Part shown: piece after piece, positions 20,980 through 49,966 of the stretch
Position numbering within the stretch: the first letter of the stretch is position 1
Layout: each line of letters opens with the position of its first letter
Virus record (IMG/VR): IMGVR_UViG_3300018080_000117
Span: 1 to 64,000 of that record
From: a virus
Strand: one strand, 5' to 3'
Length of the DNA: 64,000 nucleotides
The notes under the pieces: model-generated
Told to the model about the DNA's origin: nothing
The model's input: only the letters and a program-made list of their open reading frames with translations
Databases searched by the model: none
Program-made: the position numbers and the translations under genes

Positions 20980-22131
20980 TTAGCTGGTCTTCTGACCCAA
21001 CGCGACACCAGCCGAGTGGCCTAGTCCCAAAAAGCACAGTTCGTAGTAGTACCAACCACGCCGGGGCTTGCCCTCGTTGAACTGGGTCACGGGCTCGGAG
21101 ATCAACTCCTGCCGCACACCGAAGCCGCCCAAGTACTCAGGCTGCGTCACGCCGATCACTTCACCCGGATTCAGCAACTGGAAGCGGTTGTTGGTACCGG
21201 CTGTGGTGATTACCATCGCATTCAAGATGATCCCGACGAATCCGCCCATGATCAACTCGCGCTGCGTCACGGGATCCACCTGCTGGCTGATCGTGGTGAC
21301 GAAGTCAGAAATTTCCTGACGGTGCACGATGAACTTGTCGAGGATCAACCGGTGGCGCTCCACCTGGTAACGAATGCTTTCCAACGCCGAAATGTTGCAG
21401 GTGGCGAAGTAAGTGATGTCGTTTTCGGTGGTGCCTGCGTTCTGCAGCAGGGTCAAACCAGCCAAGTCCTCTTGGTACTCGATCGCCTGGCGGGCACGAT
21501 CCTGGGTACGTTCGAGGATATTGAACTGCGCTCGAGAGATGTCCTTCAGCTCCAACAGCGGGAACGTGGAGACCTCAAACTCAGGCGGGTAAATGTACTT
21601 ACCTTCGACCTGGGATTCCGGGGTCTGGCCGTCTTCGGCAATCTGCCAGCCAACCACGTATGGGTCTTTGTCGTAACGCACAACCTCACCGGGCTTTACG
21701 TCACGCGGGTACCAAACCTTCCGGGTCATGCCCTCGAAGTCGATGACTTCCTTGATCGGATTGAGCAGAGCCTGCCCACACCGGGCAAAGCCTTCACTGG
21801 TGGGGTCGGACATCGCCATCTGCACCAACGCATCCTTATCGGCTGCGTCGACTTTGAGCGAGGCATGCTTGGAGTGCACAGCAACCTGCTGCACGTCGAA
21901 GGTTCCATCGCTGGCACCGTCGAGCAGGCCCTTGATCTTGTCAAGGACTTCAGCGTTGTCACTGGCGTTGATTTCGCCTTTGTTGTCGAACATACGCTCG
22001 TTAGAGCTAACCTTACGATTGCCGCTGCGGCCCTGTCGACCGAAGGACATTGGGTTAAACTCTTCGCCCGCGTTGCTGTCGACGGTGCGCAGTTTGCTGG
22101 CCGCCTTCAAGTAGGGATTCATTTTCGCCAT
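20980..22131 (-). CDS. Major capsid protein (HK97 fold)
   Basis: 383 aa after protease, scaffold and decoration genes. Contains PEFEVSTFP...FNILERTQDRARQAIEYQED and shows strong codon bias. Confidence 0.9.
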   Translation of the reverse strand: MAKMNPYLKAASKLRTVDSNAGEEFNPMSFGRQGRSGNRKVSSNERMFDNKGEINASDNAEVLDKIKGLLDGASDGTFDVQQVAVHSKHASLKVDAADKDALVQMAMSDPTSEGFARCGQALLNPIKEVIDFEGMTRKVWYPRDVKPGEVVRYDKDPYVVGWQIAEDGQTPESQVEGKYIYPPEFEVSTFPLLELKDISRAQFNILERTQDRARQAIEYQEDLAGLTLLQNAGTTENDITYFATCNISALESIRYQVERHRLILDKFIVHRQEISDFVTTISQQVDPVTQRELIMGGFVGIILNAMVITTAGTNNRFQLLNPGEVIGVTQPEYLGGFGVRQELISEPVTQFNEGKPRRGWYYYELCFLGLGHSAGVALGQKTS

Positions 22132-24351: not shown

Positions 24352-25236
24352 TCAAAACAGTTTTTGGGCCAGGTTGATCATGCTTTGTGGAAGGCTGTTA
24401 ATGTTAGTTTCAAAGTAGCGCCCAACCTCCACAGCATCGTTACGATCAAGCAATCGGGACACAAGCGGCGGTAGGGAACTGTTGTTTTGTTTTAGAGACG
24501 CTGCCTTGCTTTGCATAAGGTACTGACGAACCGCTTTCGGGTCGGCGGGAATTTCAACGCCGCTTAGCTCAACAAAACATACCTCCAAGCAGTCTTCGCA
24601 AATTACCTCACCGCCCACTACCTGCAGCATTTGATTTTTCAAGTGCGAGCACTTTTCGTTCTCGGTGCGGGCTATCTTTCTACATGCGCTGTGGCTACAC
24701 TGAACGGCACCACACCAGCACCCCATTGAGAACTTATCGTTTCTGCCGCTAACAAGACCTTCGGCATAGGCTGCGTCTTTTGTGGTATCAACCGCAACAA
24801 CACAGGTTACGTACTTATCTTCGGGACCGGTCACATAGGCAGCGTCGGGCAAAAAGCCTCGTGCGGTACGAGGGTCGTCTGCCATGTGCTCAATATGCAG
24901 TGGCACGTTACGGAAGGTCTCATAAACTAAGCAACGGCAATCTGCGTCGTACCTTAGTAACTCTTGCTCGGTGAACCGGTCACCGTTACCATTGGCTTCA
25001 TTGGCTGTCACCGCACGAGCTACAGCGAACACGTAGTCATCAATGTTCGAACTAAGCTCATAATTCTGGGCGATGCTTTTTAGGCCCGGTCCTTCCGACA
25101 CCAGCTCGATCGCCTTTTTTGTGTGGGCAGCAACCCGAGGGTGCATCCGTTGAAATTGAGCGGTGATTCGAAAATTGTTATTTTGACTGGCTTGGAAAAC
25201 TCCAAGTACCGGCAGACTCGCTGTTTTGAAAAACAA
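24352..25236 (-). CDS. Capsid maturation (prohead) protease
   Basis: NGNGD.F...EL, HIEH, ARG, FSMGC and ELS.V..PAD motifs of herpes/HK97-type phage proteases, with a Cys-rich insert. Confidence 0.85.
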   Translation of the reverse strand: MFFKTASLPVLGVFQASQNNNFRITAQFQRMHPRVAAHTKKAIELVSEGPGLKSIAQNYELSSNIDDYVFAVARAVTANEANGNGDRFTEQELLRYDADCRCLVYETFRNVPLHIEHMADDPRTARGFLPDAAYVTGPEDKYVTCVVAVDTTKDAAYAEGLVSGRNDKFSMGCWCGAVQCSHSACRKIARTENEKCSHLKNQMLQVVGGEVICEDCLEVCFVELSGVEIPADPKAVRQYLMQSKAASLKQNNSSLPPLVSRLLDRNDAVEVGRYFETNINSLPQSMINLAQKLF

Positions 25237-25332
25237 TATCGTATCCCCTATCGCTTAGATTCTTCGGCCAGTATGAGATTAGTTTCCTCGGGTGAGTTAA
25301 CTTGCGTTTAGGCGCTAACCTAAAAACTAATG

Positions 25333-25360
25333 TTGACTATTTGCGAAAACGCGGTATGAT
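25333..25360 (+). promoter_or_regulatory. Sigma70-type promoter of the tRNA operon
   Basis: TTGACT-N16-TATGAT. Confidence 0.75.
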
Positions 25361-25398
25361 TTTCTTGTTACTGGACGAGTGACTCGGAGAATGTGTCT

Positions 25399-25470
25399 AT
25401 GTTACCGCTAGTTGGCTACCTCTATTATTTACCTTTGGTTCTCGAACCCCGAGGGCGAATGCTAGATTAG
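25399..25470 (+). CDS. Putative attenuator leader peptide MLPLVGYLYYLPLVLEPRGRMLD
   Basis: GGAG at 25386-25389, ATG at 25399, TAG at 25468-25470. 7 Leu (TTA x2, CTA x2, CTC x2, TTG) and 3 Tyr in 23 codons. Confidence 0.7.
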   Translation: MLPLVGYLYYLPLVLEPRGRMLD

Positions 25471-25492
25471 CGTTCAGCGGTGATAAAGACAC

Positions 25493-25525
25493 AAAGCCCT
25501 CGGGAGAAATTCCGAGGGCTTTTTT
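25493..25525 (+). terminator. Intrinsic terminator (attenuator) upstream of the tRNAs
   Basis: AAAGCCCTCGG-loop-CCGAGGGCTTT followed by a T run. Its 5' arm is also complementary to 25448-25456. Confidence 0.85.
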
Positions 25526-25548
25526 GTTGGTGACGAAAGTGGAGACAA

Positions 25549-25631
25549 CGGCAGGTGCTTGAGCGGTCAAAAAGGGCGGGCTGTACGAAGCCCTAGGGCA
25601 GCGGGTTTGTGTTCGAATCACACCCTGCCGA
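25549..25631 (+). pseudogene. tRNA-Tyr(GTA) disrupted by an internal inversion
   Basis: Acceptor stem CGGCAGG/CCTGCCG, D arm and T loop are intact. Reverse-complementing 25585-25608 restores the anticodon arm, variable arm and T stem. Confidence 0.85.
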
Positions 25632-25635
25632 TTTT

Positions 25636-25709
25636 GCCTGTGTAGCCCAATTGGAAGAGGCGCTAGACTTAGGATCTAGAGGTTGGAGGTTCGACCCCTC
25701 TCGCAGGCA
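25636..25709 (+). tRNA. tRNA-Leu(TAG), short variable loop
   Basis: Acceptor GCCTGTG/CGCAGGC, anticodon arm CTAGA-CTTAGGA-TCTAG, T arm GGAGG-TTCGACC-CCTCT, discriminator A, no encoded CCA. Confidence 0.9.
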
Positions 25710-25715
25710 TTAGAC

Positions 25716-25789
25716 GCGCGGATGGTCCAACTGGTAGAGGCATTCGACTTAAAATCGAATTGTTGCGGGTTCGAATCCCGCTCCGCGCA
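25716..25789 (+). tRNA. tRNA-Leu(TAA), short variable loop
   Basis: Acceptor GCGCGGA/TCCGCGC, anticodon arm TTCGA-CTTAAAA-TCGAA, T arm GCGGG-TTCGAAT-CCCGC, discriminator A. Confidence 0.92.
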
Positions 25790-25989
25790 TATCCGTCTTT
25801 TGGCAAGCTTTTCAACTCTCTTGGTTTGACCGCTGCTTGCGAGCCCACCGAACAACATTTCGCGGAAGGTGCGCTTCGTCCATCGGCTCCCCTAATTCGT
25901 GGAGCCTTAGTAAGTAACGTGCAAGCTCTTGGACAGGGTAGTCCCCTCCAATGGTCCTAAGCAACGTGTCCATAGATTGTCTGTCTTCG

Positions 25990-26481
25990 TCACGAGGTTT
26001 CACAACCAGTTCCTTGCGACGGTTCCAAAACAATGCGAGGATCAATCTTTACTAATTCTTTTTCCACCTGCACCAATGTCTTAAGATTTAGCTTACGCAC
26101 AGGGCGTGTCTGCGAATACCAAGTACTGATATCCTGCTTTCCGTACGCCTTATCCGCCCCCAACCAGTCACAAAGCATTTCCAGCCTGTACTTACTGGGC
26201 ATCTCCTGGATCTTAGTTTTTCCAGAGTCTTCCTGCAACACCCAATATTGCCAATGGTGCTTATTTCGGTGCTGGTGTTTGAGCCAAGCTGCTTCGAACG
26301 CTTTATTAGTTTTTTCTGTCCTGTCCCCGTAGAAATAATTTGCGTACGGAAAAAACTCGCTGGGCCGGAATTTGGAAATGTCGTGCATAAGCCCGCGCCA
26401 GATCAAACCGCGTTTGGCGCACTCGACAAACACAAACCATTTATGTCTTAGTACTGCCTTTGCGTATTTCACATATTTCAT
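25990..26481 (-). CDS. DUF5662-like HD-domain protein
   Basis: RHKWFV, HDISKF.P.EF, AWLKHQHRNKHHWQYW and EMLCDW motifs. Likely start MKYVKY at 26481. Confidence 0.75.
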   Translation of the reverse strand: MKYVKYAKAVLRHKWFVFVECAKRGLIWRGLMHDISKFRPSEFFPYANYFYGDRTEKTNKAFEAAWLKHQHRNKHHWQYWVLQEDSGKTKIQEMPSKYRLEMLCDWLGADKAYGKQDISTWYSQTRPVRKLNLKTLVQVEKELVKIDPRIVLEPSQGTGCETS

Positions 26482-26774
26482 TCTGCTACCCCTACATTTG
26501 GCCAGGTGGTTTTTGCAAGATCGGGCAGTATCCAATCAGCCGGGTCTTCCACGTCCCGCCACGCACCACAAACCGAACACCATTCGATAGCACCGCCTGG
26601 ATACTCTTTTTGCGCGATCGTCTCGATCTTATCTTCCGGATGCTTGCATTTCATTTTGCCCTCGGTTTGGGATAAAATTCTAAGGTGGGTTGGCCTTTGC
26701 AACTAATTTACAAAACCCCTAACGCATTTTGGAAATTGTACTGGGAGAACGCAGGAAAGTAAACAATAAAAAAC

Positions 26775-27242
26775 TTAACTTCTAGAGATGGCCTTCATAA
26801 GCCACATTGCGGATTCTTCGAGCTTCGTAATTGCCAAAGCCCGACTTCGGCTGTTTTCAACCTCGTCCTCGATGCAACTTAGCAAATCGCCATAAGCCGC
26901 TCTAAAGCCATCTGCCACCAGATGCTTAGCCTCATTCATCTCCACGTGATCAAACGGTCCTAGCGGCTCTGTGTCCGTCTCAGCGGTATTCTGAAAGTTG
27001 CCCTCGACCACGTTATCGTTTTCGTCGCTCATCTCTTCTTCCTCCTCTATTGGGACGACCACGTGAAAGTCGTGATCACCGCAATCACAAGGTTCTAAAA
27101 ACCCAGCTTGGCAATCGTCTTTTATCGAACCGCAAGGGGCCAAGTCTTGAGTCTCACAGGCACACCCGTCTTCTTCGTTGTACAACCCTCCATACCCGTA
27201 CTCGTCGAGGCACTCTTTGACGAAGTCTTTTACGGTAGGCAT
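26775..27242 (-). CDS. Cys-rich domain fused to an Acb2/Tad1-like hairpin domain
   Basis: C-terminal SRSRALAITKLEESAMWLMKAI. An internal ATG at 27032 has GGAGG upstream. Confidence 0.6.
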   Translation of the reverse strand: MPTVKDFVKECLDEYGYGGLYNEEDGCACETQDLAPCGSIKDDCQAGFLEPCDCGDHDFHVVVPIEEEEEMSDENDNVVEGNFQNTAETDTEPLGPFDHVEMNEAKHLVADGFRAAYGDLLSCIEDEVENSRSRALAITKLEESAMWLMKAISRS

Positions 27243-27276
27243 CCACGTCTCCTGGTTTCTTTCGTAGTCAAGCTAC

Positions 27277-27350
27277 GCATCGAATCACCGAGTTAGGTCA
27301 ACCACGGTATAAAGCTCGCACACGTGCTGCACTCGGGTGGTGTAGTTCAT
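27277..27350 (+). mobile_element. Miniature IS200/IS605-like end relic
   Basis: Follows CTAC and ends GGTGGTGTAGTTCAT, identical to the right end of the full IS at 36906. Internal inverted repeat CCGAGT/ACTCGG. Confidence 0.5.
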
Positions 27351-27354
27351 TCCT

Positions 27355-29835
27355 CTAAAGGTCAACAGCGCGAATTCTAACTAAGTGCACGGTAAACGGG
27401 TTCATCGTCAAAGACAAGCTCATGCTTCCCGATCTTACCGTCTTGATTTCCTTTGTGGCGGGTTGTACAGCACCATAACTTTTTATGATCCGCACCCCCT
27501 CTAGCAAATCCCAAGACAATCCGGAAAAACTTACTCCAGAAGCGCCTAAGGAAATATCGGTGTTGTCAACGTCGTAGTACCAAACCGCGTACGTACCCTT
27601 AGCCAGTCCAGTCAAGTCTAAAGACGTGGTACGGGTTAGGATGTCAAAGTTTACGCTTAGAACCGAAATATCTCGTCCGGAAAGGCTAGAAGTAACAATC
27701 GTATCTAAATGCTCTGCCGTTGTCGCGCTTGCTACAACCGTCGGGTGCAAAAACGAATAGAACTGAAATACTTGGTGCAGCGGAGTAAACTCCGTCAACG
27801 TGTAATCGGTGAAGTTGTTGTCTGGACAAGTAACGTCGGCAGTAGAAGTAAAGTTAACCAAGGCATTCGTTGCAGAGGCAAATCCTGCAGCATTCCAAAA
27901 AAAGAACATATCAACGCCTTCGGCCAAAAGCTTATTCACTACTGTGGCAACGTAAGCGGCTTGCCATTGATCTCCGGGGTCGTTGTCAATGTCGTTGCTA
28001 GGACACGCCTCAAGTGCACCTGTTGTTCCTCGACCAAACTCCTCGATAACTACTTCGGCACTTGTGTACCCTGCGTCATCTAAGTAAGTTCGTGTGTTCT
28101 CGTACGTCCTAAACACTTCACGAGGATCACAACTGTAGCGGTGCACACTCATAAAATCCATTGGGCTATTTGCAGGAAGCTGTGAAAGAAAAGCAGGTAT
28201 CCACGTGGCTGAAGGAAACGCATCGTTGCAGGACAAATAGCACGGATCGCCATACCCACCTATCTTTGTGTCAGCTCGTACTTTAGGAGCGAGCGCTTCG
28301 GCAGACTCATTGTAGAAGGTGTAGAAGCTAGATGCGTCTGTAGGATCCCAAAAATACCCTAAGGGCTCGTTCGGCTCATTACCAATACTCCACCACTCGA
28401 TTTGGTGGAAGTGTCGAATCATGTAATTTAGTACGCTAGCCCATTGGGTATAGTTCGCAGGAGGAGAAATATTCCAACGGATATTAGTTGCCGCCGCAGC
28501 ATAAGCCGGGGAAAAGTCACCTTGGTCAGAAGCTAAGCACAATTCTGGAGTGGGCCCGCCTTGCCTACAATCAGAAGTAGGTTGTCGAGGAACTGTCTCT
28601 ACAGTCATGTACGCATCAACTTTCATCGTAAAAACAGTGTCCATAAAATCATCCAAACCTAACCCAGCGTCGTAGGTTTCCCCTGCCAAGGTATCGGTTG
28701 CAGCAATTAAGTTATTACCTGGACAGGTGTACATCGCCACGGGGTAGAGCCCTTGTGAAAAATCGATCGTCTCCAAAGCCCGGTCGTATTTTAGTCGGTC
28801 CATGGGAAATGTCATTCGGATCATCGGTCGCTGGCTTTGATGGGGGTTAGTCGCAGCAAACGCCGCTAAGCTAGCAAAGTCATCTCCCGAATAAAGATCT
28901 CCGGATCGTTTTACCCCCACCGAGCCTGGAGTAAAGATGTTCAAGCCGATCATAGGTACGTGGTTTAGGGTTTGCGCAACCGTAGAAGTATCGATTGCGA
29001 TTGTCGGGCTTTGCGTTTTGCAGTACCCGTCAGTGTCAGCGGAGTAGATGTTAGAAATTGCAGCAGCGCTTAGCGCGTCATTGTGGATCAAAACCTCGTC
29101 GACGTATCCAATAAAGTACCCAAAGCTACCGCCTCCAATACCACCAGTGTCGCCAAAAAAGTAACCGCCAACTATTCCTGGATGCAAGGTAACGCCATCT
29201 GCATTTGATCGAGTTCTCGTATCTACGCTGCTACCATTGACGTAAAGCTCGTATTCTGTATTAGCTCCCTGATCGTCTACCGTAACAGCGACATGGGTGT
29301 AGTTTGCGTCACTAATCGCAGCTTCATAAACAAGCATTGCAGGCATCCAGTTGCCTGCGTGTTCGTAAACAGAAATTCCATTAGTTCCAACCGAAACACC
29401 TACCGTAGCCTCGAACGGACCTACTAAACAATTTCCCGAGTACAGACAATCGCCCTGCGGGGGCCACAGAGCATAATTTTGTCCTTCCGTACCCGCAACA
29501 TCGGAGCTTCCTGGATCTCCGTATTCAATATCGATGTCGTGTGTCGTAGTGGGCTTGACCCACATTTCCAGCGTAAAACTTGTTCCGACCGCACTTACTT
29601 CGTCGCAATTGACGTACAGGCTCGTCGAGCCGGTAAAGTCAAAACCCTTGCCTACCTTAGCAGCGGGAAATGCGATCGAACCCGTGCCCTCAATTTTCCC
29701 GTCGTTAGCTCCTGCACTATCTAAGTAGGTGTCGTTTCCTGACCACCAATTAGTCGCAGTTGACGGAAGGGTTAGGCAAGCAGCAAAAACAACTCGGGAA
29801 ATTAGAAGTGCAGTGAAAAAGGCTAGAGTCTTCAT
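27355..29835 (-). CDS. Secreted LamG + GH39-like (clan GH-A) glycoside hydrolase
   Basis: Signal-peptide-like MKTLAFFTALLISRVVFAA, a LamG domain, WSIGNEPN (acid/base), DFMSVHRY and IEEFG (nucleophile). Confidence 0.75.
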   Translation of the reverse strand: MKTLAFFTALLISRVVFAACLTLPSTATNWWSGNDTYLDSAGANDGKIEGTGSIAFPAAKVGKGFDFTGSTSLYVNCDEVSAVGTSFTLEMWVKPTTTHDIDIEYGDPGSSDVAGTEGQNYALWPPQGDCLYSGNCLVGPFEATVGVSVGTNGISVYEHAGNWMPAMLVYEAAISDANYTHVAVTVDDQGANTEYELYVNGSSVDTRTRSNADGVTLHPGIVGGYFFGDTGGIGGGSFGYFIGYVDEVLIHNDALSAAAISNIYSADTDGYCKTQSPTIAIDTSTVAQTLNHVPMIGLNIFTPGSVGVKRSGDLYSGDDFASLAAFAATNPHQSQRPMIRMTFPMDRLKYDRALETIDFSQGLYPVAMYTCPGNNLIAATDTLAGETYDAGLGLDDFMDTVFTMKVDAYMTVETVPRQPTSDCRQGGPTPELCLASDQGDFSPAYAAAATNIRWNISPPANYTQWASVLNYMIRHFHQIEWWSIGNEPNEPLGYFWDPTDASSFYTFYNESAEALAPKVRADTKIGGYGDPCYLSCNDAFPSATWIPAFLSQLPANSPMDFMSVHRYSCDPREVFRTYENTRTYLDDAGYTSAEVVIEEFGRGTTGALEACPSNDIDNDPGDQWQAAYVATVVNKLLAEGVDMFFFWNAAGFASATNALVNFTSTADVTCPDNNFTDYTLTEFTPLHQVFQFYSFLHPTVVASATTAEHLDTIVTSSLSGRDISVLSVNFDILTRTTSLDLTGLAKGTYAVWYYDVDNTDISLGASGVSFSGLSWDLLEGVRIIKSYGAVQPATKEIKTVRSGSMSLSLTMNPFTVHLVRIRAVDL

Positions 29836-29931
29836 GCATCCCTCTCTTTTGTTTTTCTGAGAGGGTACCACAAAGATCGATTAACTTATTTCTGGCTTTC
29901 TTTCAACACGTACGTAATTTTTTTCAATTCT

Positions 29932-30139
29932 TCAAGGTCCTAGATCCTCGTGGGAAGATACGTTTAACTTAGAATCCAGTTTTTTGTATGGGAACTGGTA
30001 AAGTTTGAAGAATTTGTTTAGGTACGTACCCTTACTTGTAGCTTCCAAAAAGTCTTGGTAAACTTCCTCTGGAACATCGCTGTATTCATAACAGTAACTC
30101 GTCAAACTCCTGATCTGTCATCTTTGAATAATCCGTCAT
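29932..30139 (-). pseudogene. Deletion fusion: unrelated N-terminus joined out of frame to the C-terminal half of a KTSC domain
   Basis: MTDYSKMTDQEFDELLL* from 30139. Another frame gives YEYSDVPEEVYQDFLEATSKGTYLNK, the KTSC pattern, lacking its N-terminal half. Confidence 0.65.
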
Positions 30140-30627
30140 TTCAAACCCTCTCTTTTCTCTAATTCACACCACCAAATTGGTTTCGATCTTCCTTTTTCCC
30201 ATCGGGCAAAATGTTTCTTCTCACTCCAATAATAACATCGATAAGCATAAACCGGATTGATGTTTCGATATTGATCCGGCATCGCCTGTGCCGGTACACT
30301 AAATATATCCGAATCCACCATCCCATCGGGAATCACAACCAAGTAGCCTTGCAACACTCTTCGGCAAGCATGAGGTTTCCCGTAACGAAAATAAAATTCA
30401 TCTGCCAAAGCCATCGCGTATTTGTACAACCACAAATAATTCTGCCGACACTTGCGCGCCCACAGACTACATGGATGATTGTAGTGCGTGCGTCGATAGG
30501 GCACGTTCTCTTGCGGATGGCAATTGCAAAGCAACTGAGTTGCTTCGATCAGCATTTTGTTAACGTGCTTATCGCAAAGCATTTGAGCAGCGGCAACTGG
30601 GGCTGCGTCGAGAAAAAAAATATTCAC
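30136..30627 (-). CDS. Pyrimidine-dimer DNA glycosylase/endonuclease V-like protein
   Basis: (M)NIFFLD..P...A...CDKHVNKM..E..QLL, THYNHPC and QAMPDQY motifs. GTG start at 30627. Confidence 0.8.
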   Translation of the reverse strand: MNIFFLDAAPVAAAQMLCDKHVNKMLIEATQLLCNCHPQENVPYRRTHYNHPCSLWARKCRQNYLWLYKYAMALADEFYFRYGKPHACRRVLQGYLVVIPDGMVDSDIFSVPAQAMPDQYRNINPVYAYRCYYWSEKKHFARWEKGRSKPIWWCELEKREGLK

Positions 30628-30718
30628 GATCCGTCCCCTTTGAAGCGACCTGCTTTGTATCACACCCCCATCCAACACGTAGCGCCAACAATCCGCCTGC
30701 GTTTTTAGATTTGTCATT

Positions 30719-31384
30719 CTAGGAGTCTTCTTTTAACAAGTCTTCTGCCGCACGACTGCCTAGCTTCGTAACCGTGTACCGATAAGCCTCGTCAAACTCA
30801 ACAAGAAACTTAGTTTTTAGCCTTCCTAAAAGATGCCTGGCCCATTCTCTACACCGAATAGATGCGTTCGGTCCCACCGGATTATGACCAGTGACGGTAC
30901 TGTACAAATTCTTTCCTAACTCAGCGGCAGTAACAGGGCTTTGCAAGTCGTAGAGATAGGTCAACACTTTTGCTTCCGAAGGGCCTATGTAAAACCCCAC
31001 CGAAGGCAGCCAGATACGGTTAGAAACCTTTACGGCTCTTGGTTTTCGATGGCGTTTGATGCTTTGCGCAACCCTACGCAAAGCCTTCTTCAGAGCCTCG
31101 TACTTTCGATCTGCGGGCCGCTCTGTAATTTTAGGGGTGGTGGGTAGTAACCTTATGGGAGGAGGAGCCTGGCACCCCTCAGGAACAAGATAGTGACCTA
31201 AGGTATTTTCGTACCTACCTCCTTTGAGCCACCAGACGGACCCATCTGCTAAAGTAAGCTTCGACCCATCGTTGTGGGCAATCATCGCCTTACTTTTTAG
31301 AGTTTGGTGCTTACGTGTCCGGATCTCGACAAACGCCTTGTCCTCATAACCTTTTGGCCTGTCGGCGGAATTGCTATTGCTCAT
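30719..31384 (-). CDS. Hypothetical protein with C-terminal winged-helix-like region
   Basis: EAKVLTYL...VTAAELG...L.RLKTKFLV...YTVTKLG. Start is uncertain. Confidence 0.5.
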   Translation of the reverse strand: MSNSNSADRPKGYEDKAFVEIRTRKHQTLKSKAMIAHNDGSKLTLADGSVWWLKGGRYENTLGHYLVPEGCQAPPPIRLLPTTPKITERPADRKYEALKKALRRVAQSIKRHRKPRAVKVSNRIWLPSVGFYIGPSEAKVLTYLYDLQSPVTAAELGKNLYSTVTGHNPVGPNASIRCREWARHLLGRLKTKFLVEFDEAYRYTVTKLGSRAAEDLLKEDS

Positions 31385-31665
31385 TGGTCTTCTCTTCTGC
31401 AATTCGGCACAAGGCGTAGCCTGCGATGTCTTTCCAAGGGTCCTCGCCAAACGCTTGTTTGTGGTGGGAGATCCTAGATATTTTTTCTAGGACACGAGCG
31501 ATCATTACAAAGTCTAAGTACTGGTTTGGTTCCACTTTTTCGGCGTACAGATCTCTTAAGATCTTGTTCACAAAACCGTATGCGCTACCGTAGGACTCAT
31601 TTTTTTGGCTGATAAACTTGCCTATTTGTTCTGCAACCTCGACAATAGCCTTAGAGCGATTCATG
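31374..31665 (-). CDS. Nucleotide-modification-associated (DUF1599/MazG-like) protein
   Basis: KNESYG.A...KISRI...EDPWKDIAGYA motif. Confidence 0.6.
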
Positions 31666-31893
31666 ATCATTTTCCTCAACACGCCGTTCAACGTAGACAC
31701 CTTCTTCGAGTTTCATTTGGGTAACAACCTTGCCGTTGACGCAAAGGTACACGACTTCTCCCTTATCTAACGCCTCCTGGGCTTTTTCGTAGAGCTTCTG
31801 GTCAAGGCACCGAACATTGGCCTCCTTGTCTCTTTCCAGGAGCAGACCGTTTGACCAATCGATAAAATTTCTTCTATTTAGTTTGTAGGGCAT
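31651..31893 (-). CDS. Hypothetical protein
   Basis: 80 aa, GAGG RBS. Confidence 0.6.
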   Translation of the reverse strand: MPYKLNRRNFIDWSNGLLLERDKEANVRCLDQKLYEKAQEALDKGEVVYLCVNGKVVTQMKLEEGVYVERRVEENDHESL

Positions 31894-31951
31894 TGCTTGT
31901 CCTCATAATCTAAATAATTTTACCGGGTTTCGGTTTAGGAGTGGGGGTAGA

Positions 31952-32236
31952 CTAGCCAATGGCTTTTAGGACTTGGATCAGATCCTCGATTCGGCTGAAT
32001 TCGACACGATGGCCTGCCGGTGTGTGAAGAACTAAGGGGCCTTTTGATTTTGTCAACGGGACAGGTTCAGCGTTTTCCTGCTGCTGCTTTTCCCACGTCC
32101 TCAATGTGATGTAGGGCAGACCTAACTTTGCCGCTGCCTGCTGCGCTGCTACACCGTCTGCCTTGAGTTTTCGGTAGCGTTTTACGAGTTCCGCTTTTTG
32201 TTCTGGTGTTTTGTTGTTTCTTTTTTTCACTTTCAT
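31952..32236 (-). CDS. Small HTH protein
   Basis: TPEQKAELV...AAAKLGLPYITLRTW HTH pattern, GGAGG RBS. Confidence 0.65.
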   Translation of the reverse strand: MKVKKRNNKTPEQKAELVKRYRKLKADGVAAQQAAAKLGLPYITLRTWEKQQQENAEPVPLTKSKGPLVLHTPAGHRVEFSRIEDLIQVLKAIG

Positions 32237-32247
32237 AAGGGTACCTC

Positions 32248-32433
32248 CTAACGTTTTACCACGTCCAACAAACGAGAAAACCGATAAACAACATCTAATA
32301 TTTCTTTTGCAGATTCATCCCCATTCTTTGCTTGTTTTTCTACTTGCTCTAAAAAAGCGCGAAGTTGAACAAAGCAGTCACCCCCATCGGCACCAGAAAA
32401 AACATCAGTAATTTTTTGCAGAGAAGTTTTCAT
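32248..32433 (-). CDS. Hypothetical protein
   Basis: 61 aa, GGAGG RBS. Confidence 0.55.
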   Translation of the reverse strand: MKTSLQKITDVFSGADGGDCFVQLRAFLEQVEKQAKNGDESAKEILDVVYRFSRLLDVVKR

Positions 32434-32531
32434 TAGGCTTACCTCCTACCTATGATCGTAGTAAATCGCATCGATTCAAAACAGCAAAGTCAACATCCAA
32501 CCATCTGGCTTGGCAACAGGTTCGAAGCGAA

Positions 32532-33605
32532 TCATCCCTCGCCCCCGTCAGCCGCTTCATGCTTGACGACCCATCGTGGCCAGAACGAATCGTGGCCAGC
32601 CAAAGTTCGAATGAGTTCTCGCAATGTAACGCTGTTGTCCTGCAAATCGAGCAGGAACACCCCGTCACGTTCCTCTTCGAAGATCAGCTCAATTGAGGCA
32701 AGAACCAGCGGCGAGTGTGTAGCGGTAATAAGTTGCGTCTTGGCGTTGTGCTCTCCAGTCAGGGCTTCCATCACTTCGAGCAAGGCCGGGACTACGCGTC
32801 GCTGCCATTCTGGATGCAGATGGGCTTCTACCTCGTCGATGAGGAAGATAATCTCTGAGACAGGTGTCTCGCCACGAAGCTTGCACGCCTCCAAATGCTC
32901 TTGCCAAGTCCAGACCAAAAGATAGGCCAGGGCCACTACTCGGCGCATACCAGCCGAGGCGTGGATGAGGGCGACGTCCTCGCCATAGGGCATCTTCAGG
33001 GTTGGGTACCTTTTCGGATCATCCAGAGAAACCTTGCGAAGATCCCCGGGGATGAGCTGTGATGGTGAGAGCGACTTCAGAACGCTCTTGAGCTGTTGAA
33101 AAGCCTCTCCGTCTTCTCTTTGCCAAGATGCCCAATCACGAATGAGGCCTTCGCAGAGGTCGTTGCCTTCCCAGACCTGGTCGGAAGTGAAAAGATAGGA
33201 CTTAGGACGATCTGAATCATCTTTTTTCCAATAGTTGCGAGCGGGATCCCAGACCGAGAACCCGCCGTCGACCTGGGCGTAGATCACCATACTCGGAATA
33301 GGCGGGCGGCCTCGCTTGACGCTCCACTCTTCGCTTTCACGATCAAACGTGCTTGTGTAGTCGTACGTCCCACCGGCCTTCGCTTTGTAACGATAACTAA
33401 TGCTCGGTCTTGCAAGTGGAGGATGAGGCACCATGGGAAGGCGCGCCCAGGTGCAAGTGAGCGCCCACCATGCGACATCAAGAAGAAAAGTCTTGCCGAG
33501 CCCATTGTCCCCAGCGAGAAAGTTCAAACGCTCTTTGAAGTCGATCTTGAGCGATGGCGCTGGGCCGACGTTTTGAAACTTCAGTGATTCAAGCTGTTTG
33601 CTCAT
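32532..33605 (-). CDS. AAA_21/ABC-type ATPase (defence-associated type), probably C-terminally shortened
   Basis: Walker A GDNGLGKT, signature SAGMRR, Walker B LIDEVEAHLHP.WQR and H-loop ATHSP. Start MSKQ at 33605. GC is higher than the flanks. Confidence 0.85.
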   Translation of the reverse strand: MSKQLESLKFQNVGPAPSLKIDFKERLNFLAGDNGLGKTFLLDVAWWALTCTWARLPMVPHPPLARPSISYRYKAKAGGTYDYTSTFDRESEEWSVKRGRPPIPSMVIYAQVDGGFSVWDPARNYWKKDDSDRPKSYLFTSDQVWEGNDLCEGLIRDWASWQREDGEAFQQLKSVLKSLSPSQLIPGDLRKVSLDDPKRYPTLKMPYGEDVALIHASAGMRRVVALAYLLVWTWQEHLEACKLRGETPVSEIIFLIDEVEAHLHPEWQRRVVPALLEVMEALTGEHNAKTQLITATHSPLVLASIELIFEEERDGVFLLDLQDNSVTLRELIRTLAGHDSFWPRWVVKHEAADGGEG

Positions 33606-33906
33606 TCCTTGCCCTCCACAATGCGCTGTGCGTCGCCCCATTCTTTGCCATATTTCCAATCCAAATCTTGGCAGCAATCCCGCAAATCTCTGATCAGCCA
33701 AATGGCCACAGCCAGGCGGGCCCTGAGGTCGTCATCTTCACCAAAACAACGACCGCACATGATGTTGGCCGCAGGCTCCCTGCCGCAACGGTGGCATCTA
33801 GCAAATACCTTTTTGTCAACGTCAACACAATGGTTCATGCCGTACAGCCTCTCGCAGATTTGCCTCACGCAAATCAGTCCAACACAGATCAGCCTCTCGC
33901 AGATGA

Positions 33907-34425
33907 TCATATTCTCACCCCACATTCTTTGGCTATCATCTCCCACAGCTCCCAAAGGGGTTTGGCTGGCCCAGGCGACCATAGCCTTTTTTTCTCTTTG
34001 AAAAGCACAACACGATCCTTCCCGCCCATGCGCAGTGGGCAGGACCCGCCATTCGTCCAATCGTTCATCAACGCCTCTCCGTTCGGCAACGCAGACGCGT
34101 CAAGCCTCATCAACTCAACAGTCAGATCGTCTGATAATTCTCCCCAACTTGCCATCATTATCTGCACCACAGAATACCCAGCCCCACGCAGGTCGGCATC
34201 ATGCATATAGGCTCCACGCAGATCAGCACCGATAAAAGAAGAATCACGCAAATCAGCCCGACACAGATTGACTCTACGCAGATCAGCCTCTCGCAGATCA
34301 GCCTCTCGCAGATCAACCTCTCGCAGATCAACCTTTCGCAAATCAGCCCAACACAGATTGACTCCACGCAAGACAGCCTTTCGCAGGTTGGCTCCTGGCT
34401 TGATTTCATATCCGTTGATGATCAT
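33907..34425 (-). CDS. Pentapeptide repeat protein
   Basis: Tandem A(D/N)LR(E/K/G) repeats with a visible 15-bp periodicity. Confidence 0.9.
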   Translation of the reverse strand: MIINGYEIKPGANLRKAVLRGVNLCWADLRKVDLREVDLREADLREADLRRVNLCRADLRDSSFIGADLRGAYMHDADLRGAGYSVVQIMMASWGELSDDLTVELMRLDASALPNGEALMNDWTNGGSCPLRMGGKDRVVLFKEKKRLWSPGPAKPLWELWEMIAKECGVRI

Positions 34426-34429
34426 ATTC

Positions 34430-34816
34430 TCACCTCAACGTAGCAAACACCTTGCCGTCACCCTCTACACCAAAATAACCTTCTCCCGAATGAAAATCCT
34501 CAGTGGGGCCAAAAGCGGCTAGCCACCACTTCACGGCTTCCAAAGAGGTTTCCGCAGAAACGGTTTGTTCAATTTGCAGCCCAACCAACTTGCCCTCCAC
34601 AAAGGTGAAGGTGTTTTCTTCCCCGGCAACGTCGGTTGTTAGGTCTTGACCTTTCTGATCTTCGATAAGGCACACGTACCGCCCATTGACGGGATCTTGC
34701 CGGTTACACAGTTTTGAAAACGTGTACATCCTCTTGACTTGTTTTGGGCTTTGACCCCAGGAGACACCCTGGTGAAAAGGTGCTGCTACCAACGCTACCA
34801 AAATAAGTGCTTGCAT
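34430..34816 (-). CDS. Putative exported protein
   Basis: Hydrophobic N-terminus MQALILVALVAA, GGAGG RBS. Confidence 0.65.
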   Translation of the reverse strand: MQALILVALVAAPFHQGVSWGQSPKQVKRMYTFSKLCNRQDPVNGRYVCLIEDQKGQDLTTDVAGEENTFTFVEGKLVGLQIEQTVSAETSLEAVKWWLAAFGPTEDFHSGEGYFGVEGDGKVFATLR

Positions 34817-34835
34817 TTTTCCCTCCTAGTAAACC

Positions 34836-34916
34836 TTAGTAAAGTTTACTAAAGAAGGTCACTAGTAGTAAAGTATTTTTTGTGGCTAGATTACAAGTCC
34901 GGATTATTGTTGTAAA
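34836..34916 (-). promoter_or_regulatory. Sigma70-like promoter with downstream palindromic operator
   Basis: TTTACA-N17-TAATCT (34916 to 34888) and a perfect palindrome TTAGTAAA-G-TTTACTAA at 34836-34852. Confidence 0.5.
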
Positions 34917-35051
34917 AAATAGTGCCCGAAAAAGCGGCTTTGCTTGTGTGTGCCCAAGTGACTTTTGCAGTTAATCAAAAAAAACACGAAGCGGCTTTTA
35001 TCGAGCACTTTCTGAAAAATAACTTGTCGGCAAAAGACCGTCAAATTAAAA

Positions 35052-35261
35052 TTACAGTTTGGAGCCTTTTTCTTCTAGTATTTTTGCGGTCCCTGCCTTT
35101 ATTTCCTGAAGAGTTTGACGGGGGAGCATATTTCCTACGTAGATTTTAGAGCCCGCTGAGAACTTGACCAGATAAAAAGTCAATCCTCTGTCCCTAGCGT
35201 AGGTTTCAGCCTTTCGGCGCTGTCGTTTGTTGTCTGCAGGAAACCAGCGAGAAGCGGGCAT
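35052..35261 (-). CDS. Hypothetical protein
   Basis: 69 aa, AAGGA RBS. Confidence 0.55.
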   Translation of the reverse strand: MPASRWFPADNKRQRRKAETYARDRGLTFYLVKFSAGSKIYVGNMLPRQTLQEIKAGTAKILEEKGSKL

Positions 35262-35270
35262 TCATAATCC

Positions 35271-35783
35271 TTACGTAAAAAGCGCCATTAGAAAATTGAA
35301 AAACTGTTGCTTGGGCACCTCAAGGGTCATTTTTACCATTGCGTTATTGGTGCTTTCAACCTGCAACGTCAAGGTCTCTTCAATGTTGCGTGGCTTACTT
35401 GGACTAATATTCGCGGGGGGAGTAACCTTTTTGCGTGCGCCTTTTTCAACTTGCTTCTCAGCTTCCGCTTTGACGTTAGAGTCAATAACCGGGGTTCTCT
35501 TCGGTGCCCCGGTTTTACCCTGACCCACCGTATCTGGGATTCCCAACGTTTTACGAAGAGCAGCATCGATTTGTTTTTGAGTGCGTTTAGATTTGACCTT
35601 TACCGGCAAAGGCCGATCCAAACGCACCAACCGTGCTAAGTGGTGCCCCGGAGGAAGATCCACGTTATGCCTTTCTCGCAACAAAGACACAATTTTCCCC
35701 CACCGAGTTCCTTCTTTTTGAAGCACTAGTGCCTCGTTTTTGATTGTTGCCCACATGTCATAAGTAAGTTCCTTGTAGTGCAT
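35271..35783 (-). CDS. Basic hypothetical protein
   Basis: Likely start MHYKEL after GGAGG. Lys-rich. Confidence 0.6.
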   Translation of the reverse strand: MHYKELTYDMWATIKNEALVLQKEGTRWGKIVSLLRERHNVDLPPGHHLARLVRLDRPLPVKVKSKRTQKQIDAALRKTLGIPDTVGQGKTGAPKRTPVIDSNVKAEAEKQVEKGARKKVTPPANISPSKPRNIEETLTLQVESTNNAMVKMTLEVPKQQFFNFLMALFT

Positions 35784-36025
35784 TCTTCTACCTCCAAAAA
35801 GTCCCTGCGTGCTTGCTGTAAGATGTTCCAAAAATGTTCGTAAGGTACGCCTAAGCTTTTACAGATCGAACTTGTTGCAGCAACAATGCCTGCAGCAAGA
35901 GGGTATAGGTACTTAGCCTCGATGTAGGTCTCGGCAGTAAGAATTCCAACAGCCACACTTTTAGCGTAGCTCTCAAACTCTTTTTTCGTTGCATCTCGAT
36001 CTTTCAAAAGAAGCTCCCTGCACAA
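35726..36025 (-). CDS. Hypothetical protein
   Basis: 99-aa ORF overlapping its neighbours. Start is uncertain. Confidence 0.45.
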   Translation of the reverse strand: MCRELLLKDRDATKKEFESYAKSVAVGILTAETYIEAKYLYPLAAGIVAATSSICKSLGVPYEHFWNILQQARRDFLEVEECTTRNLLMTCGQQSKTRH

Positions 36026-36380
36026 CCGCCGCGTGACCGCAAGAGGTTTGGCTGTTCACATACTCAACCATATTAGGATTTCTGTTTATTACACAATCAA
36101 CGAACTTCTTGATATCGCTCTTCACAAATTTATAAGCGAGGTAAACTTGTTCCCCGCGAATATTCATGTCATCGAGGTGAAAAAGCACCTCGATCATTTC
36201 CACCAAATCCGCTTGTAACTGCGTAAGGACAGATAGGGCCCCAGGATTGCCTTCGCTCATCAAAAGCAACAAGTCTTTGACGGACATATCGGGAGTTATG
36301 GATTCCCGCGCTGCTACCAAACCTTCATTTTTTTCGGAGCCCATTAAACAAATTCCTTCTCTTGAAGTTTTCAATCGCAT
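35973..36380 (-). CDS. Conserved phage hypothetical protein
   Basis: MSEGNPGALSVL...LDDMNIRG motif seen in phage proteins (from recall). Confidence 0.6.
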   Translation of the reverse strand: MRLKTSREGICLMGSEKNEGLVAARESITPDMSVKDLLLLMSEGNPGALSVLTQLQADLVEMIEVLFHLDDMNIRGEQVYLAYKFVKSDIKKFVDCVINRNPNMVEYVNSQTSCGHAAVVQGASFERSRCNEKRV

Positions 36381-36457
36381 ACCGCAGTGCCCGAAAACTA
36401 ACTTAGTTTTATCTAGTAGTCAATTGGAAAACACCAGGGCCCTGGCGTCCCGTACTT

Positions 36458-36513
36458 TGCATCTTAGTGCATTATTGCCTGCTCTGAACAGCAAGAATCT
36501 GCACTAAGATGCA
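36458..36513. repeat. Perfect 14-bp inverted repeat hairpin
   Basis: TGCATCTTAGTGCA (36458-36471) and TGCACTAAGATGCA (36500-36513). Confidence 0.9.
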
Positions 36514-36525
36514 TCATCTCCGCGA

Positions 36526-36849
36526 TTAAACCCGTTGCTTAGCACGGGCATGCAGGTGCAAGTGGCTCGTCGCTTCCTTCTGACTGTAGTCTACCCACCA
36601 ATTATTCGTCCCGTACCAATCATCGGCTACCGGCTTCAAAGCTCGATCCATCCGTAAAAGTAATCCAGGGCTAAAGTTTCTGGTGTGCTGTTTGAGCGTG
36701 GCGACGAAGTCTAAACAAATAGGACAACGAAAAACTAAAAACTCCTCAGTCTCTTTTATTATCTTTTGCGGTAGTTTGCACAAGGCACACCGCACCCGTG
36801 ATCGCAAATTCCAATCGATAACCGTTTCTAGATTTTCGAATTCGTTCAA
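36526..36849 (-). CDS. Zn-binding/HIT-like hypothetical protein
   Basis: CALC, CPIC and a C-terminal HLHLH. Confidence 0.5.
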   Translation of the reverse strand: MNEFENLETVIDWNLRSRVRCALCKLPQKIIKETEEFLVFRCPICLDFVATLKQHTRNFSPGLLLRMDRALKPVADDWYGTNNWWVDYSQKEATSHLHLHARAKQRV

Positions 36850-36910
36850 CTCACTCCTCTATCTAAATCCAAATCGTACTCCTGGATGACCGTATGTATT
36901 TGTGCATGAA

Positions 36911-38176: not shown

Positions 38177-38243
38177 GTCTAAGTCTCACCCCAAGCTCAA
38201 ACTCTTTGACTTTATCACCCATCTCTGACACAAACTCTTAGTT

Positions 38244-38660: not shown

Positions 38661-38725
38661 CACCGCCGCGCTTCACCACCAGCCAACGAAAACCCTGTTT
38701 GGCTGGAGCACTGCGCGGCATTTGG

Positions 38726-47754: not shown

Positions 47755-47810
47755 TTTTTGGGGCCTCCCGTTGAAACTTAGTATCTAGCAAAACTCAACT
47801 ACGCTGTAAA

Positions 47811-49709: not shown

Positions 49710-49710
49710 G

Positions 49711-49920: not shown

Positions 49921-49966
49921 TGAATCCTCCTTTTTGTTTACCTCTATTTTAGACATAGGAGATCTT

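What the first reader, a model, noticed from the sequence alone, without database searches (positions are those of the whole stretch)
25333..25789. Leader-peptide attenuator controlling a phage tRNA operon, sensing the same tRNAs it encodes
Seen in sequence: promoter TTGACT-N16-TATGAT, then GGAG and a 23-codon ORF (25399-25470, MLPLVGYLYYLPLVLEPRGRMLD). Ten codons are Leu or Tyr, and eight of these (TTA x2, TTG, CTA x2, TAC, TAT x2) are read by the three downstream tRNAs: Leu-UAA, Leu-UAG and Tyr-GUA. A strong intrinsic terminator (25493-25525) lies between the ORF and the tRNAs. Its 5' arm GCCCTCGGG (25496-25504) is perfectly complementary to CCCGAGGGC (25448-25456), an antiterminator. That segment is otherwise held by GTTCTCG (25438-25444) inside a long protector hairpin (TGTGTCT/AGACACA, GTTACCGCT/AGCGGTGAT). 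Established: this is the geometry of trp/leu/his/pheST attenuation. Inference: a ribosome stalled on the TAC-CTC-TAT-TAT-TTA block would melt the protector, free the antiterminator and allow tRNA transcription. The phage would then make spare tRNAs only when host Leu/Tyr tRNAs are depleted, for example by anticodon-nuclease defences. I know of no described attenuator whose output is tRNA genes.
Basis: partly seen in the sequence, partly recalled or inferred. Interest (0 to 1): 0.95.

Follow-up and report, generated by a model that had tools for sequence, protein, structure and literature searches.

The report
Candidate leader-peptide attenuator before phage tRNAs
A small promoter, mini-gene and stop-signal unit sits in front of three phage tRNA genes and has the layout of a trp-operon-style switch that would make Leu/Tyr-reading tRNAs only when ribosomes stall on those codons, but it occurs in this one phage only and is untested.

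Summary
It comprises a sigma-70-like promoter (25333-25360), GGAG plus a 23-codon ORF (25399-25470), a long hairpin (25392-25492, -41.7 kcal/mol), a strong terminator (25493-25522, -22.0) and a perfect 9-nt antiterminator complement (25448-25456 to 25496-25504). Each part is rarer than chance: complement P=0.0018; codons matching the downstream anticodons P=0.01 by shuffles and 8e-4 by genome codon use. The structure is 15.6 kcal/mol stronger on the + strand. A ribosome-mask simulation gives the three attenuator states on the nascent RNA.

Corrections:
- The "Tyr-GUA" gene is not a canonical tRNA as written. It becomes one only after an in-silico 24-bp inversion.
- Both Leu-anticodon tRNAs lack the long variable arm.
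- At equilibrium the terminator always wins, so control would have to be kinetic.

Conservation cannot be tested. None of 28 relatives has tRNAs at this site, and the cassette lies at the edge of a ~14-kb insertion.

My best reading is a ribosome-mediated attenuator of a self-contained tRNA cassette (about 0.5). Rivals are an untranslated promoter-terminator unit and a bidirectional terminator.

This scan has noted the same design on other phage DNA. I checked phiCbK and found annotated terminators before its three main tRNA blocks. My literature searches found no published tRNA-gene attenuator.

The parts
25333..25360 (+). Sigma-70-like promoter, -35 TTGACT (25333-25338), 16-nt spacer, -10 TATGAT (25355-25360), with an A-rich stretch just upstream. 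The start site is inferred near 25367.
   Evidence: 10 of 12 matches, and the only promoter-like site in 24900-26700 on either strand. Sequence read. Similar TTGAC-type sites occur elsewhere in the genome.
25367..25383 (+). Small 5' hairpin of the leader transcript
   Evidence: Minimum-energy folds
25386..25389 (+). Shine-Dalgarno GGAG, 9 nt before the ATG
   Evidence: GGAG lies upstream of 49 of 155 long ATG-started ORFs in this genome (9.2 expected), mostly 6-9 nt from the start, and 5 of those 49 have a 9-nt spacing.
25399..25470 (+). Leader ORF of 23 codons plus TAG (MLPLVGYLYYLPLVLEPRGRMLD). Leu codons: TTA x2, CTA x2, CTC x2, TTG. Tyr codons: TAC, TAT x2.
   Evidence: codon list. (enrichment statistics); 6 of 7 Leu codons are the phage's three least-used or near-least-used ones (TTA, CTA, CTC), P=0.016.
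25392..25492 (+). Long imperfect 'protector' hairpin (segments 1:2). It encloses the start codon at its base and the antiterminator segment near its tip.
   Evidence: -41.7 kcal/mol, with 6 G-U pairs inside this hairpin that would be mismatches on the minus strand; z=-6.26 for 25365-25530.
25448..25456 (+). Segment 2 (CCCGAGGGC), the 5' half of the antiterminator and a copy of the terminator's 3' arm
   Evidence: the 25448-25504 conformer is -27.6 kcal/mol. P=0.0018.
25496..25504 (+). Segment 3 (GCCCTCGGG), shared by the antiterminator and the terminator
25493..25528 (+). Intrinsic terminator (13-bp stem, GAAA loop, six T). It also folds on the minus strand with 11 pairs and a poorer T tract.
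   Evidence: both strands. (-22.0 kcal/mol).
25549..25631 (+). Class-II tRNA-like gene, Tyr-like, with a non-canonical 6-nt anticodon loop as written. It is canonical tRNA-Tyr(GUA) only if about 25585-25608 is inverted.
   Evidence: ARAGORN '???'. (no Rfam tRNA hit at E<=1); 6 of 196 trial inversions give tRNA-Tyr(gta); a second assembly of the same run is identical.
25636..25709 (+). tRNA with anticodon UAG (reads CUA/CUG; Leu), 74 nt, no long variable arm, discriminator A
   Evidence: (59 bits); member of a phage family of short tRNAs that all carry Leu anticodons.
25716..25789 (+). tRNA with anticodon UAA (reads UUA/UUG; Leu), 74 nt, no long variable arm, discriminator A
   Evidence: (62.1 bits)

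Best explanation
This is a self-contained + strand cassette set against the flow of the neighbouring minus-strand phage genes. A host-type promoter starts a roughly 160-nt leader that ends at a strong intrinsic terminator 24 nt before three tRNA genes.

Inferred mechanism (ribosome-mediated attenuation):
- With no ribosome, or with a ribosome that runs to the TAG, the long 1:2 hairpin or the ribosome itself holds segment 2. The 3:4 terminator then forms and transcription stops.
- If the ribosome stalls on the Leu/Tyr codons in the first 13 codons, the 5' arm of the hairpin is occupied and segment 2 is freed. It pairs with segment 3 before segment 4 is made, and RNA polymerase reads on into the tRNA genes.
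- The output tRNAs read the same codons that cause the stall, so this would be a negative-feedback supply loop.

Shown: the sequence parts, their non-randomness, their strand bias and the in-silico alternative folds. Inferred: that the promoter fires, that the ORF is translated, and that stalling changes read-through.
For: - All parts are at the stated places.
- The antiterminator complement is 9 of 9 nt, P=0.0018 by 50,000 shuffles and 23 of 13,594 genome windows. The antiterminator conformer (-27.6) is stronger than the terminator alone (-22.0).
- Nascent-RNA simulation: segment 2:3 forms with the A site at 11 of 24 codon positions (1-9, 12, 13). It does not form with no ribosome or from codon 14 to the stop.
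- 8 of the 12 codons at positions 2-13 are Leu or Tyr. Over the whole ORF, 8 of 22 codons match the downstream anticodons (P=8e-4 by genome frequencies, 0.01 by shuffles). 6 of 7 Leu codons are minor ones (P=0.016).
- The structure is selected on the + strand: -71.7 against -56.1 kcal/mol, with 8 G-U pairs.
- The GGAG spacing fits this phage's own genes.
- No other promoter-like site lies between the terminator and the tRNAs. All flanking genes are on the minus strand, so the + strand terminator has no other + strand transcript to end.
- The sequence is identical in a second assembly.
- Context: in phiCbK, submitter-annotated terminators lie 11, 22 and 128 nt before its three main tRNA blocks, with short ORFs in front.
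Against: - There is no conservation test. 0 of 28 relatives have any tRNA within 6 kb of the protease gene. No match was found in INPHARED, IMG/VR patterns or JGI metagenomes.
- With the full transcript at equilibrium, the terminator conformer is more stable than the antiterminator in all 24 masked states, for example -50.4 against -43.7. The switch would therefore have to be kinetic.
The result depends on that assumption.
- The Tyr-like gene is not a canonical tRNA as written.
- Leu and Tyr are scattered rather than in a run. The shuffle P values (0.003-0.01) are modest, and the T-rich hairpin arm favours such codons.
- The start codon lies in the hairpin base.
- The terminator also folds on the minus strand.
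- My scan found no strong terminator upstream of 28 other phage tRNA clusters, or in 8 tRNA-rich loci with 85 tRNAs that partly overlap those 28.
Confidence: 0.5

Rival explanations
1. The unit is a promoter plus terminator that does not depend on translation. It could be a roughly 160-nt structured small RNA with tRNAs made only by leak. Alternatively, the terminator could be overcome by a trans-acting phage or host factor, in the manner of lambda PR'-6S RNA-tR' with Q. In either case the ORF and its codon content are incidental to a T-rich hairpin arm.
For: - Promoter, strong hairpin and terminator are all present.
- The terminator conformer wins at equilibrium in every state.
- The ORF is short and unconserved. 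An ATG-started ORF of this size is expected fairly often by chance (my estimate, not computed).
- No relative keeps the element.
Against: - This reading does not explain the exact 9-nt copy of the terminator arm placed inside the ORF (P=0.0018).
- It does not explain the match of codons to downstream anticodons.
- It does not explain a well-spaced GGAG.
- No Rfam family for processive antitermination RNAs or other leaders reached threshold.
Confidence: 0.25
2. The hairpin and terminator mainly serve the minus strand. They would act as a bidirectional terminator or processing site that closes the ~14-kb accessory island before the head-protease gene. The tRNA block would be a rearranged, decaying remnant without regulated expression.
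For: - The terminator scores on the minus strand too (11 pairs).
- The minus-strand fold is still z=-5.56.
- The cassette sits at the edge of an insertion: in the 5 relatives informative (of 6 examined) the ~263-aa gene lies just upstream of the protease, directly adjacent in 11 of the 27 loci, whereas here its homologue is 14 kb away.
- In other phages, tRNAs near DUF5662 genes are on the same strand as that gene: 31 of 31 tRNAs in 11 of 80 loci. Here they are opposed.
- The Tyr gene carries an internal inversion.
Against: - The + strand fold is 15.6 kcal/mol more stable, with 8 G-U pairs that become mismatches on the minus strand.
- The T tract is better on the + strand.
- The two Leu-anticodon tRNAs are intact, at 59 and 62 bits.
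- This reading explains neither the promoter nor the ORF nor the antiterminator copy.
Confidence: 0.15
3. The 23-codon ORF is a real small-peptide gene with its own terminator. It has a hydrophobic N-terminal 15 residues and a charged tail, and could for example be a membrane-active or toxin-like peptide. It would be unrelated to tRNA control.
For: The ORF has an SD, an ATG and a structured mRNA that hides the start codon, and a terminator follows directly.
Against: - The hydrophobic stretch is short and has two prolines (sequence).
- No antisense partner or homologue was found.
- This reading does not explain the antiterminator copy or the tRNAs 24 nt behind the terminator.
Confidence: 0.05

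Closest known systems
Leader-peptide (ribosome-mediated) transcription attenuators of amino-acid operons and pheST (trpL, hisL, leuL, pheL, thrL, ilvL, pheM; textbook knowledge, recalled)
   Same: A promoter-proximal mini-ORF is enriched in the sensed codons. It has 1:2 protector, 2:3 antiterminator and 3:4 terminator pairings. The stop codon is placed so that a finishing ribosome covers segment 2.
   Different: The output is tRNA genes, not biosynthetic or synthetase genes. The regulatory codons are mixed (Leu plus Tyr) and scattered. The element sits in a phage. It is not conserved in any relative available.
Rfam His_leader (RF00514)
   Same: There is a weak match over 25416-25527, mostly from a near-identical terminator stem.
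   Different: The score is 24.5 bits against a gathering score of 49, E=0.24. There are no His codons. It is not a member.
Caulobacter phage phiCbK tRNA blocks (JX100813)
   Same: Submitter-annotated rho-independent terminators lie 11, 22 and 128 nt upstream of its three main tRNA blocks. Short ORFs stand in front. gp083 has 25 of 44 residues Ser, Leu, Pro or Lys, ahead of Pro, Lys, Leu and Ser tRNAs. A 32-codon ORF holds an 8-nt copy of the next terminator's 3' arm.
   Different: The sequence is unrelated. Those terminators also follow co-oriented genes. The codon match of the 32-codon ORF is weak by eye (12 of 31). The phiCbK genome paper does not discuss this; I read the passages holding 'terminator' or 'tRNA'.
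Anabaena sp. PCC 7120 trn operon (PMC8421152, passages read; PMC10272220, abstract read)
   Same: An accessory tRNA array is kept silent and switched on under translational stress.
   Different: Control is by the repressor TrcR acting on direct repeats in the promoter. There is no leader ORF or terminator. 'Attenuat', 'leader' and 'terminator' each occur 0 times in PMC8421152.
Lambda late promoter PR' / 6S RNA / tR' with Q antitermination (recalled)
   Same: A constitutive promoter makes a short structured RNA that ends at a strong terminator in front of the regulated genes.
   Different: That system needs a protein factor and a binding site at the promoter, and has no role for a leader ORF. 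No such factor was identified here.

Membership tests
Leader-peptide transcription attenuator | Short ORF with a ribosome-binding site just downstream of a promoter | tested here: met
   Promoter 10 of 12. GGAG lies 9 nt before the ATG and the ORF has 23 codons. The spacing is within this phage's own range. This is sequence-level evidence only.
Leader-peptide transcription attenuator | Intrinsic terminator between the ORF and the controlled genes, with no promoter in between | tested here: met
   The terminator is at 25493-25522, -22.0 kcal/mol. The first tRNA starts at 25549. No promoter-like site was found downstream of 25360. That scan covers sigma-70 type sites only.
Leader-peptide transcription attenuator | Mutually exclusive protector, antiterminator and terminator pairings | tested here: met
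   1:2 is -41.7, the 2:3 span is -27.6 and 3:4 is -22.0. The 9-nt complement has P=0.0018. Caveat: the terminator state is favoured at equilibrium in all masked states.
Leader-peptide transcription attenuator | Regulatory codons placed so that a stalled ribosome frees the antiterminator and a finishing ribosome blocks it | tested here: inconclusive
   The simulation gives the expected outcome at codons 1-9, 12 and 13, and from codon 14 to the stop. It does not at codons 10 and 11. The result depends on the assumed footprint.
Leader-peptide transcription attenuator | ORF and alternative structure conserved, and codons co-varying with output, among relatives | tested here: inconclusive
   0 of 28 relatives carry tRNAs or this leader at the site. 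No homologous leader was found. The nearest protease relative is 51% identical.
Leader-peptide transcription attenuator | Read-through depends on translation of the leader and on supply of the cognate charged tRNA | not testable with these tools
   No RNA run holds the sequence. The host is unknown.
Rfam His_leader RF00514 | Score at or above the curated gathering threshold | tested here: not met
   24.5 bits against 49
Canonical bacterial-type tRNA-Tyr (first gene) | Cloverleaf with a 7-nt anticodon loop holding GUA | tested here: not met
   ARAGORN gives a 6-nt loop and 'tRNA-???'. There is no Rfam tRNA hit at E<=1. The feature is met only after in-silico inversion.
Bacterial tRNA-Leu (class II) | Long variable arm | tested here: not met
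   Both tRNAs are 74 nt with 4-5 nt variable loops. They nevertheless belong to a phage family of short tRNAs in which 6 of 6 pattern hits carry Leu anticodons. Which amino acid is charged is unknown.

The most novel reading that the evidence does not exclude
This is a working member of an unpublished class: ribosome-stalling attenuators that gate phage tRNA genes. Decoding speed at Leu/Tyr codons directly sets transcription of the tRNAs that read those codons. That would be a tRNA-supply homeostat carried on a mobile cassette. It could also serve as an automatic answer to host defences that deplete tRNAs.
Probability: 0.4. Interest if true: 0.85.

Novelty: new variant of a known kind. Interest (0 to 1): 0.62.

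Why it matters
Leader-peptide attenuation is a textbook mechanism known for amino-acid and synthetase genes. Six literature searches here turned up no case where it controls tRNA genes.

If it is real, phages would be measuring translation speed codon by codon and topping up exactly the limiting tRNAs. That bears on why phages carry tRNAs and on how they might respond to anticodon nucleases. The roughly 200-nt part could also be cloned and tested directly.

This single, unconserved instance adds one more example rather than proof. Its value lies in the clean geometry and in its isolation: no co-oriented upstream gene confuses the role of the terminator.

Tried and rejected
**Homologues of the locus.** None were found.
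- blastn of 25237-25989 against 50,697 phage records gave no match.
- Exact or gapped patterns from the terminator, the antiterminator and the tRNA anticodon arms gave 0 hits in IMG/VR.
- A gapped pattern from the two tRNA anticodon arms gave 0 hits in JGI metagenome contigs.
- The element is single-copy in its own genome.
- The scan's own index has no look-alike.

**Relatives by the head protease.** The single-protein scan found none. The alignment-based scan found 28, none with tRNAs nearby.

**tRNA clusters elsewhere in relatives.** They exist in 4 of 10 records searched; 2 further records were not held. My scan found no strong upstream terminator: 3 weak hits among 28 clusters, and none upstream of a tRNA in 8 loci. 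These two sets overlap.

**Expression.** No RNA holder is listed; only one DNA run is listed, probably the source. Laying that run showed an identical contig, which is not independent of the source sample.

**Equilibrium folding with masks.** This did not discriminate the states. I replaced it with nascent-transcript folding.

**tRNA identity by similarity to annotated phage tRNAs.** The result was mixed (Arg, Asn, His and Leu hits at 71-83% identity) and not decisive.

**Repeated promoter-stem-loop cassettes in the genome.** Rejected; no second copy exists.

**Type I toxin idea.** Kept only as a minor rival.

**Closed resources.** Supplementary files of the papers were not seen. Supplementary tables of PMC3556154 might list phiCbK terminators or small ORFs in more detail.
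Full report
**Where it lies.** The window is the first 64 kb of a 136,432-bp IMG/VR phage record rated 74% complete. It comes from a sediment metagenome. A second assembly of the same run is identical over 24800-26400.

The region 25237-25989 is an intergenic gap in a long array of minus-strand genes.
- Towards lower coordinates lie the head maturation protease (24352-25236, PHROG 18299) and the major head protein (20980-22131).
- Towards higher coordinates lie a DUF5662 protein (25990-26535), an Acb2/Tad1-hairpin protein (26775-27242) and a LamG/GH39 protein (27355-29871).
- The only three tRNA-like genes in the 136 kb are here, on the + strand.

**Checking the observation.**
- The promoter TTGACT-16-TATGAT is at 25333-25360. 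It is the only promoter-like site in 24900-26700, but one site is within shuffle expectation.
- GGAG is at 25386-25389, and the 23-codon ORF runs 25399-25470.
- A long imperfect hairpin spans 25392-25492 (-41.7 kcal/mol).
- The terminator is at 25493-25522 (-22.0) and is followed by six T.
- There is an exact 9-nt complement between 25448-25456 and 25496-25504. The conformer that uses it (25448-25504) reaches -27.6 kcal/mol.
- The whole leader folds at -71.7 kcal/mol, z=-6.26, with 0 of 200 shuffles as stable.

- In the minimum-energy fold, segment 2 pairs with 25432-25438, not with 25438-25444.
- The first tRNA is not a clean Tyr-GUA gene (see the paragraph on the tRNAs).

**Is it more than chance?**
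- A complement of 9 nt or more to the terminator's 5' arm appears in 0.18% of 50,000 shuffles of the upstream 126 nt, and in 23 of 13,594 genome windows.
- Against codon frequencies of 135 crude gene calls in this genome, 8 of 22 codons read by anticodons UAA, UAG or GUA has P=8e-4. Ten of 22 Leu/Tyr codons has P=1.6e-4. Dinucleotide shuffles of the ORF give 0.01 and 0.003.
- Six of the seven Leu codons are TTA, CTA or CTC, which together make up 39% of Leu codons in the phage (P=0.016).
- GGAG is used by this phage's genes: 49 of 155 long ORFs against 9.2 expected. The 9-nt spacing falls within their range.

**Which strand?** The same stretch folds at -56.1 kcal/mol on the minus strand (z=-5.56), against -71.7 on the + strand. 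The + strand fold holds 8 G-U pairs that become mismatches on the other strand. The T tract is also better on the + strand. The structure therefore looks selected as + strand RNA. No + strand gene lies upstream, so the only + strand transcript the terminator could end is the one from the 25333 promoter.

**Does the geometry behave like an attenuator?** I folded the nascent RNA (25367-25506, before segment 4 exists) with a ribosome mask from A-18 to A+12.
- Segment 2:3 formed (9 of 9 pairs) with the A site at codons 1-9, 12 and 13.
- It did not form with no ribosome, at codons 10 and 11, or from codon 14 to the stop.

Eight of the twelve codons 2-13 are Leu or Tyr.

Against this, with the complete transcript at equilibrium the terminator state is more stable in all 24 masked states. 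Any switch must therefore be kinetic, as is assumed for classical attenuators. The failure at codons 10 and 11 shows that the outcome is sensitive to the footprint I assumed.

**The tRNAs.**
- Rfam scores 25636-25709 (anticodon UAG) at 59 bits and 25716-25789 (UAA) at 62.1 bits. Both are 74 nt with short variable loops, unlike bacterial class II tRNA-Leu.
- The UAG tRNA shares its 5' half with a short AAG tRNA of a relative. A degenerate motif from the two found 6 places in IMG/VR. All 6 are 74-79-nt tRNAs with Leu anticodons: tag, caa, caa, aag, cag, aag. These are probably real Leu-codon readers of an unusual shape.
- The first gene (25549-25631) is class II and Tyr-like. ARAGORN gives it a 6-nt anticodon loop and no isotype, and Rfam does not hit it at E<=1.
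Six of 196 trial inversions, all nested around 25585-25608, give tRNA-Tyr(gta). So the cassette once held a Tyr tRNA that matched the three Tyr codons. As assembled, it is scrambled.

**Relatives.**
- The protease has 20 homologues at 41-51% identity, and 28 related IMG/VR loci were found. None has a tRNA within about 6 kb.
- In 5 of the 6 relatives examined, a ~263-aa gene lies just upstream of the protease; one search shows it directly adjacent, with a 218-279-nt gap, in 11 of 27 loci, while other loci have a short ORF in between. Its homologue here is at 39365-40084. About 14 kb, with the tRNA cassette at its edge, is therefore an insertion.
- Relatives carry tRNAs elsewhere (4 of 10 records), but my scan found no strong upstream terminators there.
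- DUF5662 genes often sit beside tRNAs in other phages, in 11 of 80 loci, and always on the same strand. Here the tRNAs are opposed to the DUF5662 gene.
- The 'relatives keep the ORF' test therefore cannot be done. This is neither support nor refutation.

**Comparison with what is known.**
- The design matches leader-peptide attenuators. The only Rfam leader hit is sub-threshold: His_leader at 24.5 against 49 bits, mostly from the terminator.
- My searches found no paper describing attenuation of tRNA genes.
- The nearest printed case I found is the Anabaena trn array. It is induced by translational stress but controlled by the repressor TrcR at the promoter.
- Earlier notes of this scan report similar leader-ORF plus terminator units before tRNA arrays in several other phages. 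These are unchecked AI notes.
- I tested the idea on phiCbK. Its GenBank record carries terminators 11, 22 and 128 nt before its three main tRNA blocks, with short ORFs in front. One of those ORFs holds an 8-nt copy of the terminator arm. Its genome paper does not discuss this, judging from the passages I read.

**Verdict.** The anatomy is real and non-random. The best reading is a ribosome-mediated attenuator gating a small, mobile tRNA cassette (about 0.5). The rivals are a translation-independent promoter-terminator unit (0.25), a mainly minus-strand terminator beside a decaying tRNA block (0.15) and a small-peptide gene (0.05). The anticodon-nuclease link is unsupported speculation.

Noticed in passing
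window 25636-25709; L039/L139, L134-L138: There is a family of short phage tRNAs (74-79 nt, no long variable arm) that share a 5'-half motif. All 6 pattern hits in IMG/VR carry Leu anticodons (tag, caa, caa, aag, cag, aag). A class-I-shaped tRNA-Leu would be unusual for bacterial systems. Which amino acid is charged is unknown.
   Followed up: partly
window 25585-25608: The Tyr-like class II tRNA gene is canonical only if a roughly 24-bp internal segment is inverted. Two assemblies of the same run agree on the scrambled form. Whether both orientations exist in the reads was not testable.
   Followed up: partly
L033 about 880-1075 and about 1960-2075 (relative G003): Two places look like tRNA genes in pieces with the 3' part (anticodon arm to acceptor end) upstream of the 5' part (acceptor plus D arm). 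Both 3' parts are preceded by a shared GATTACATTGC motif. They may be permuted or split tRNA genes. This was seen by eye.
   Followed up: no
window 25237-39364: About 14 kb between the head protease and the homologue of the gene that precedes it in relatives is specific to this phage. It holds the tRNA cassette, DUF5662, an Acb2/Tad1-hairpin protein (Pfam E=3.7e-9), a LamG/GH39 protein and more.
   Followed up: partly
L052-L131 (80 DUF5662 loci): DUF5662 genes lie within 3 kb of tRNA genes in 11 of 80 phage loci. All 31 tRNAs are on the same strand as the DUF5662 gene, which hints at a tRNA-related role for this unknown family.
   Followed up: no
L133 (phiCbK 47000-53000): GenBank-annotated terminators lie directly before the three main tRNA blocks. 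gp083 (45 aa) is 25 of 44 Ser, Leu, Pro or Lys, ahead of Pro, Lys, Leu and Ser tRNAs.
   Followed up: partly
window 25812-26045 (minus strand): A 77-aa ORF overlaps the end of the DUF5662 gene and stops 22 nt from the last tRNA. It has no PHROG hit, and it is unclear whether it is a gene.
   Followed up: partly
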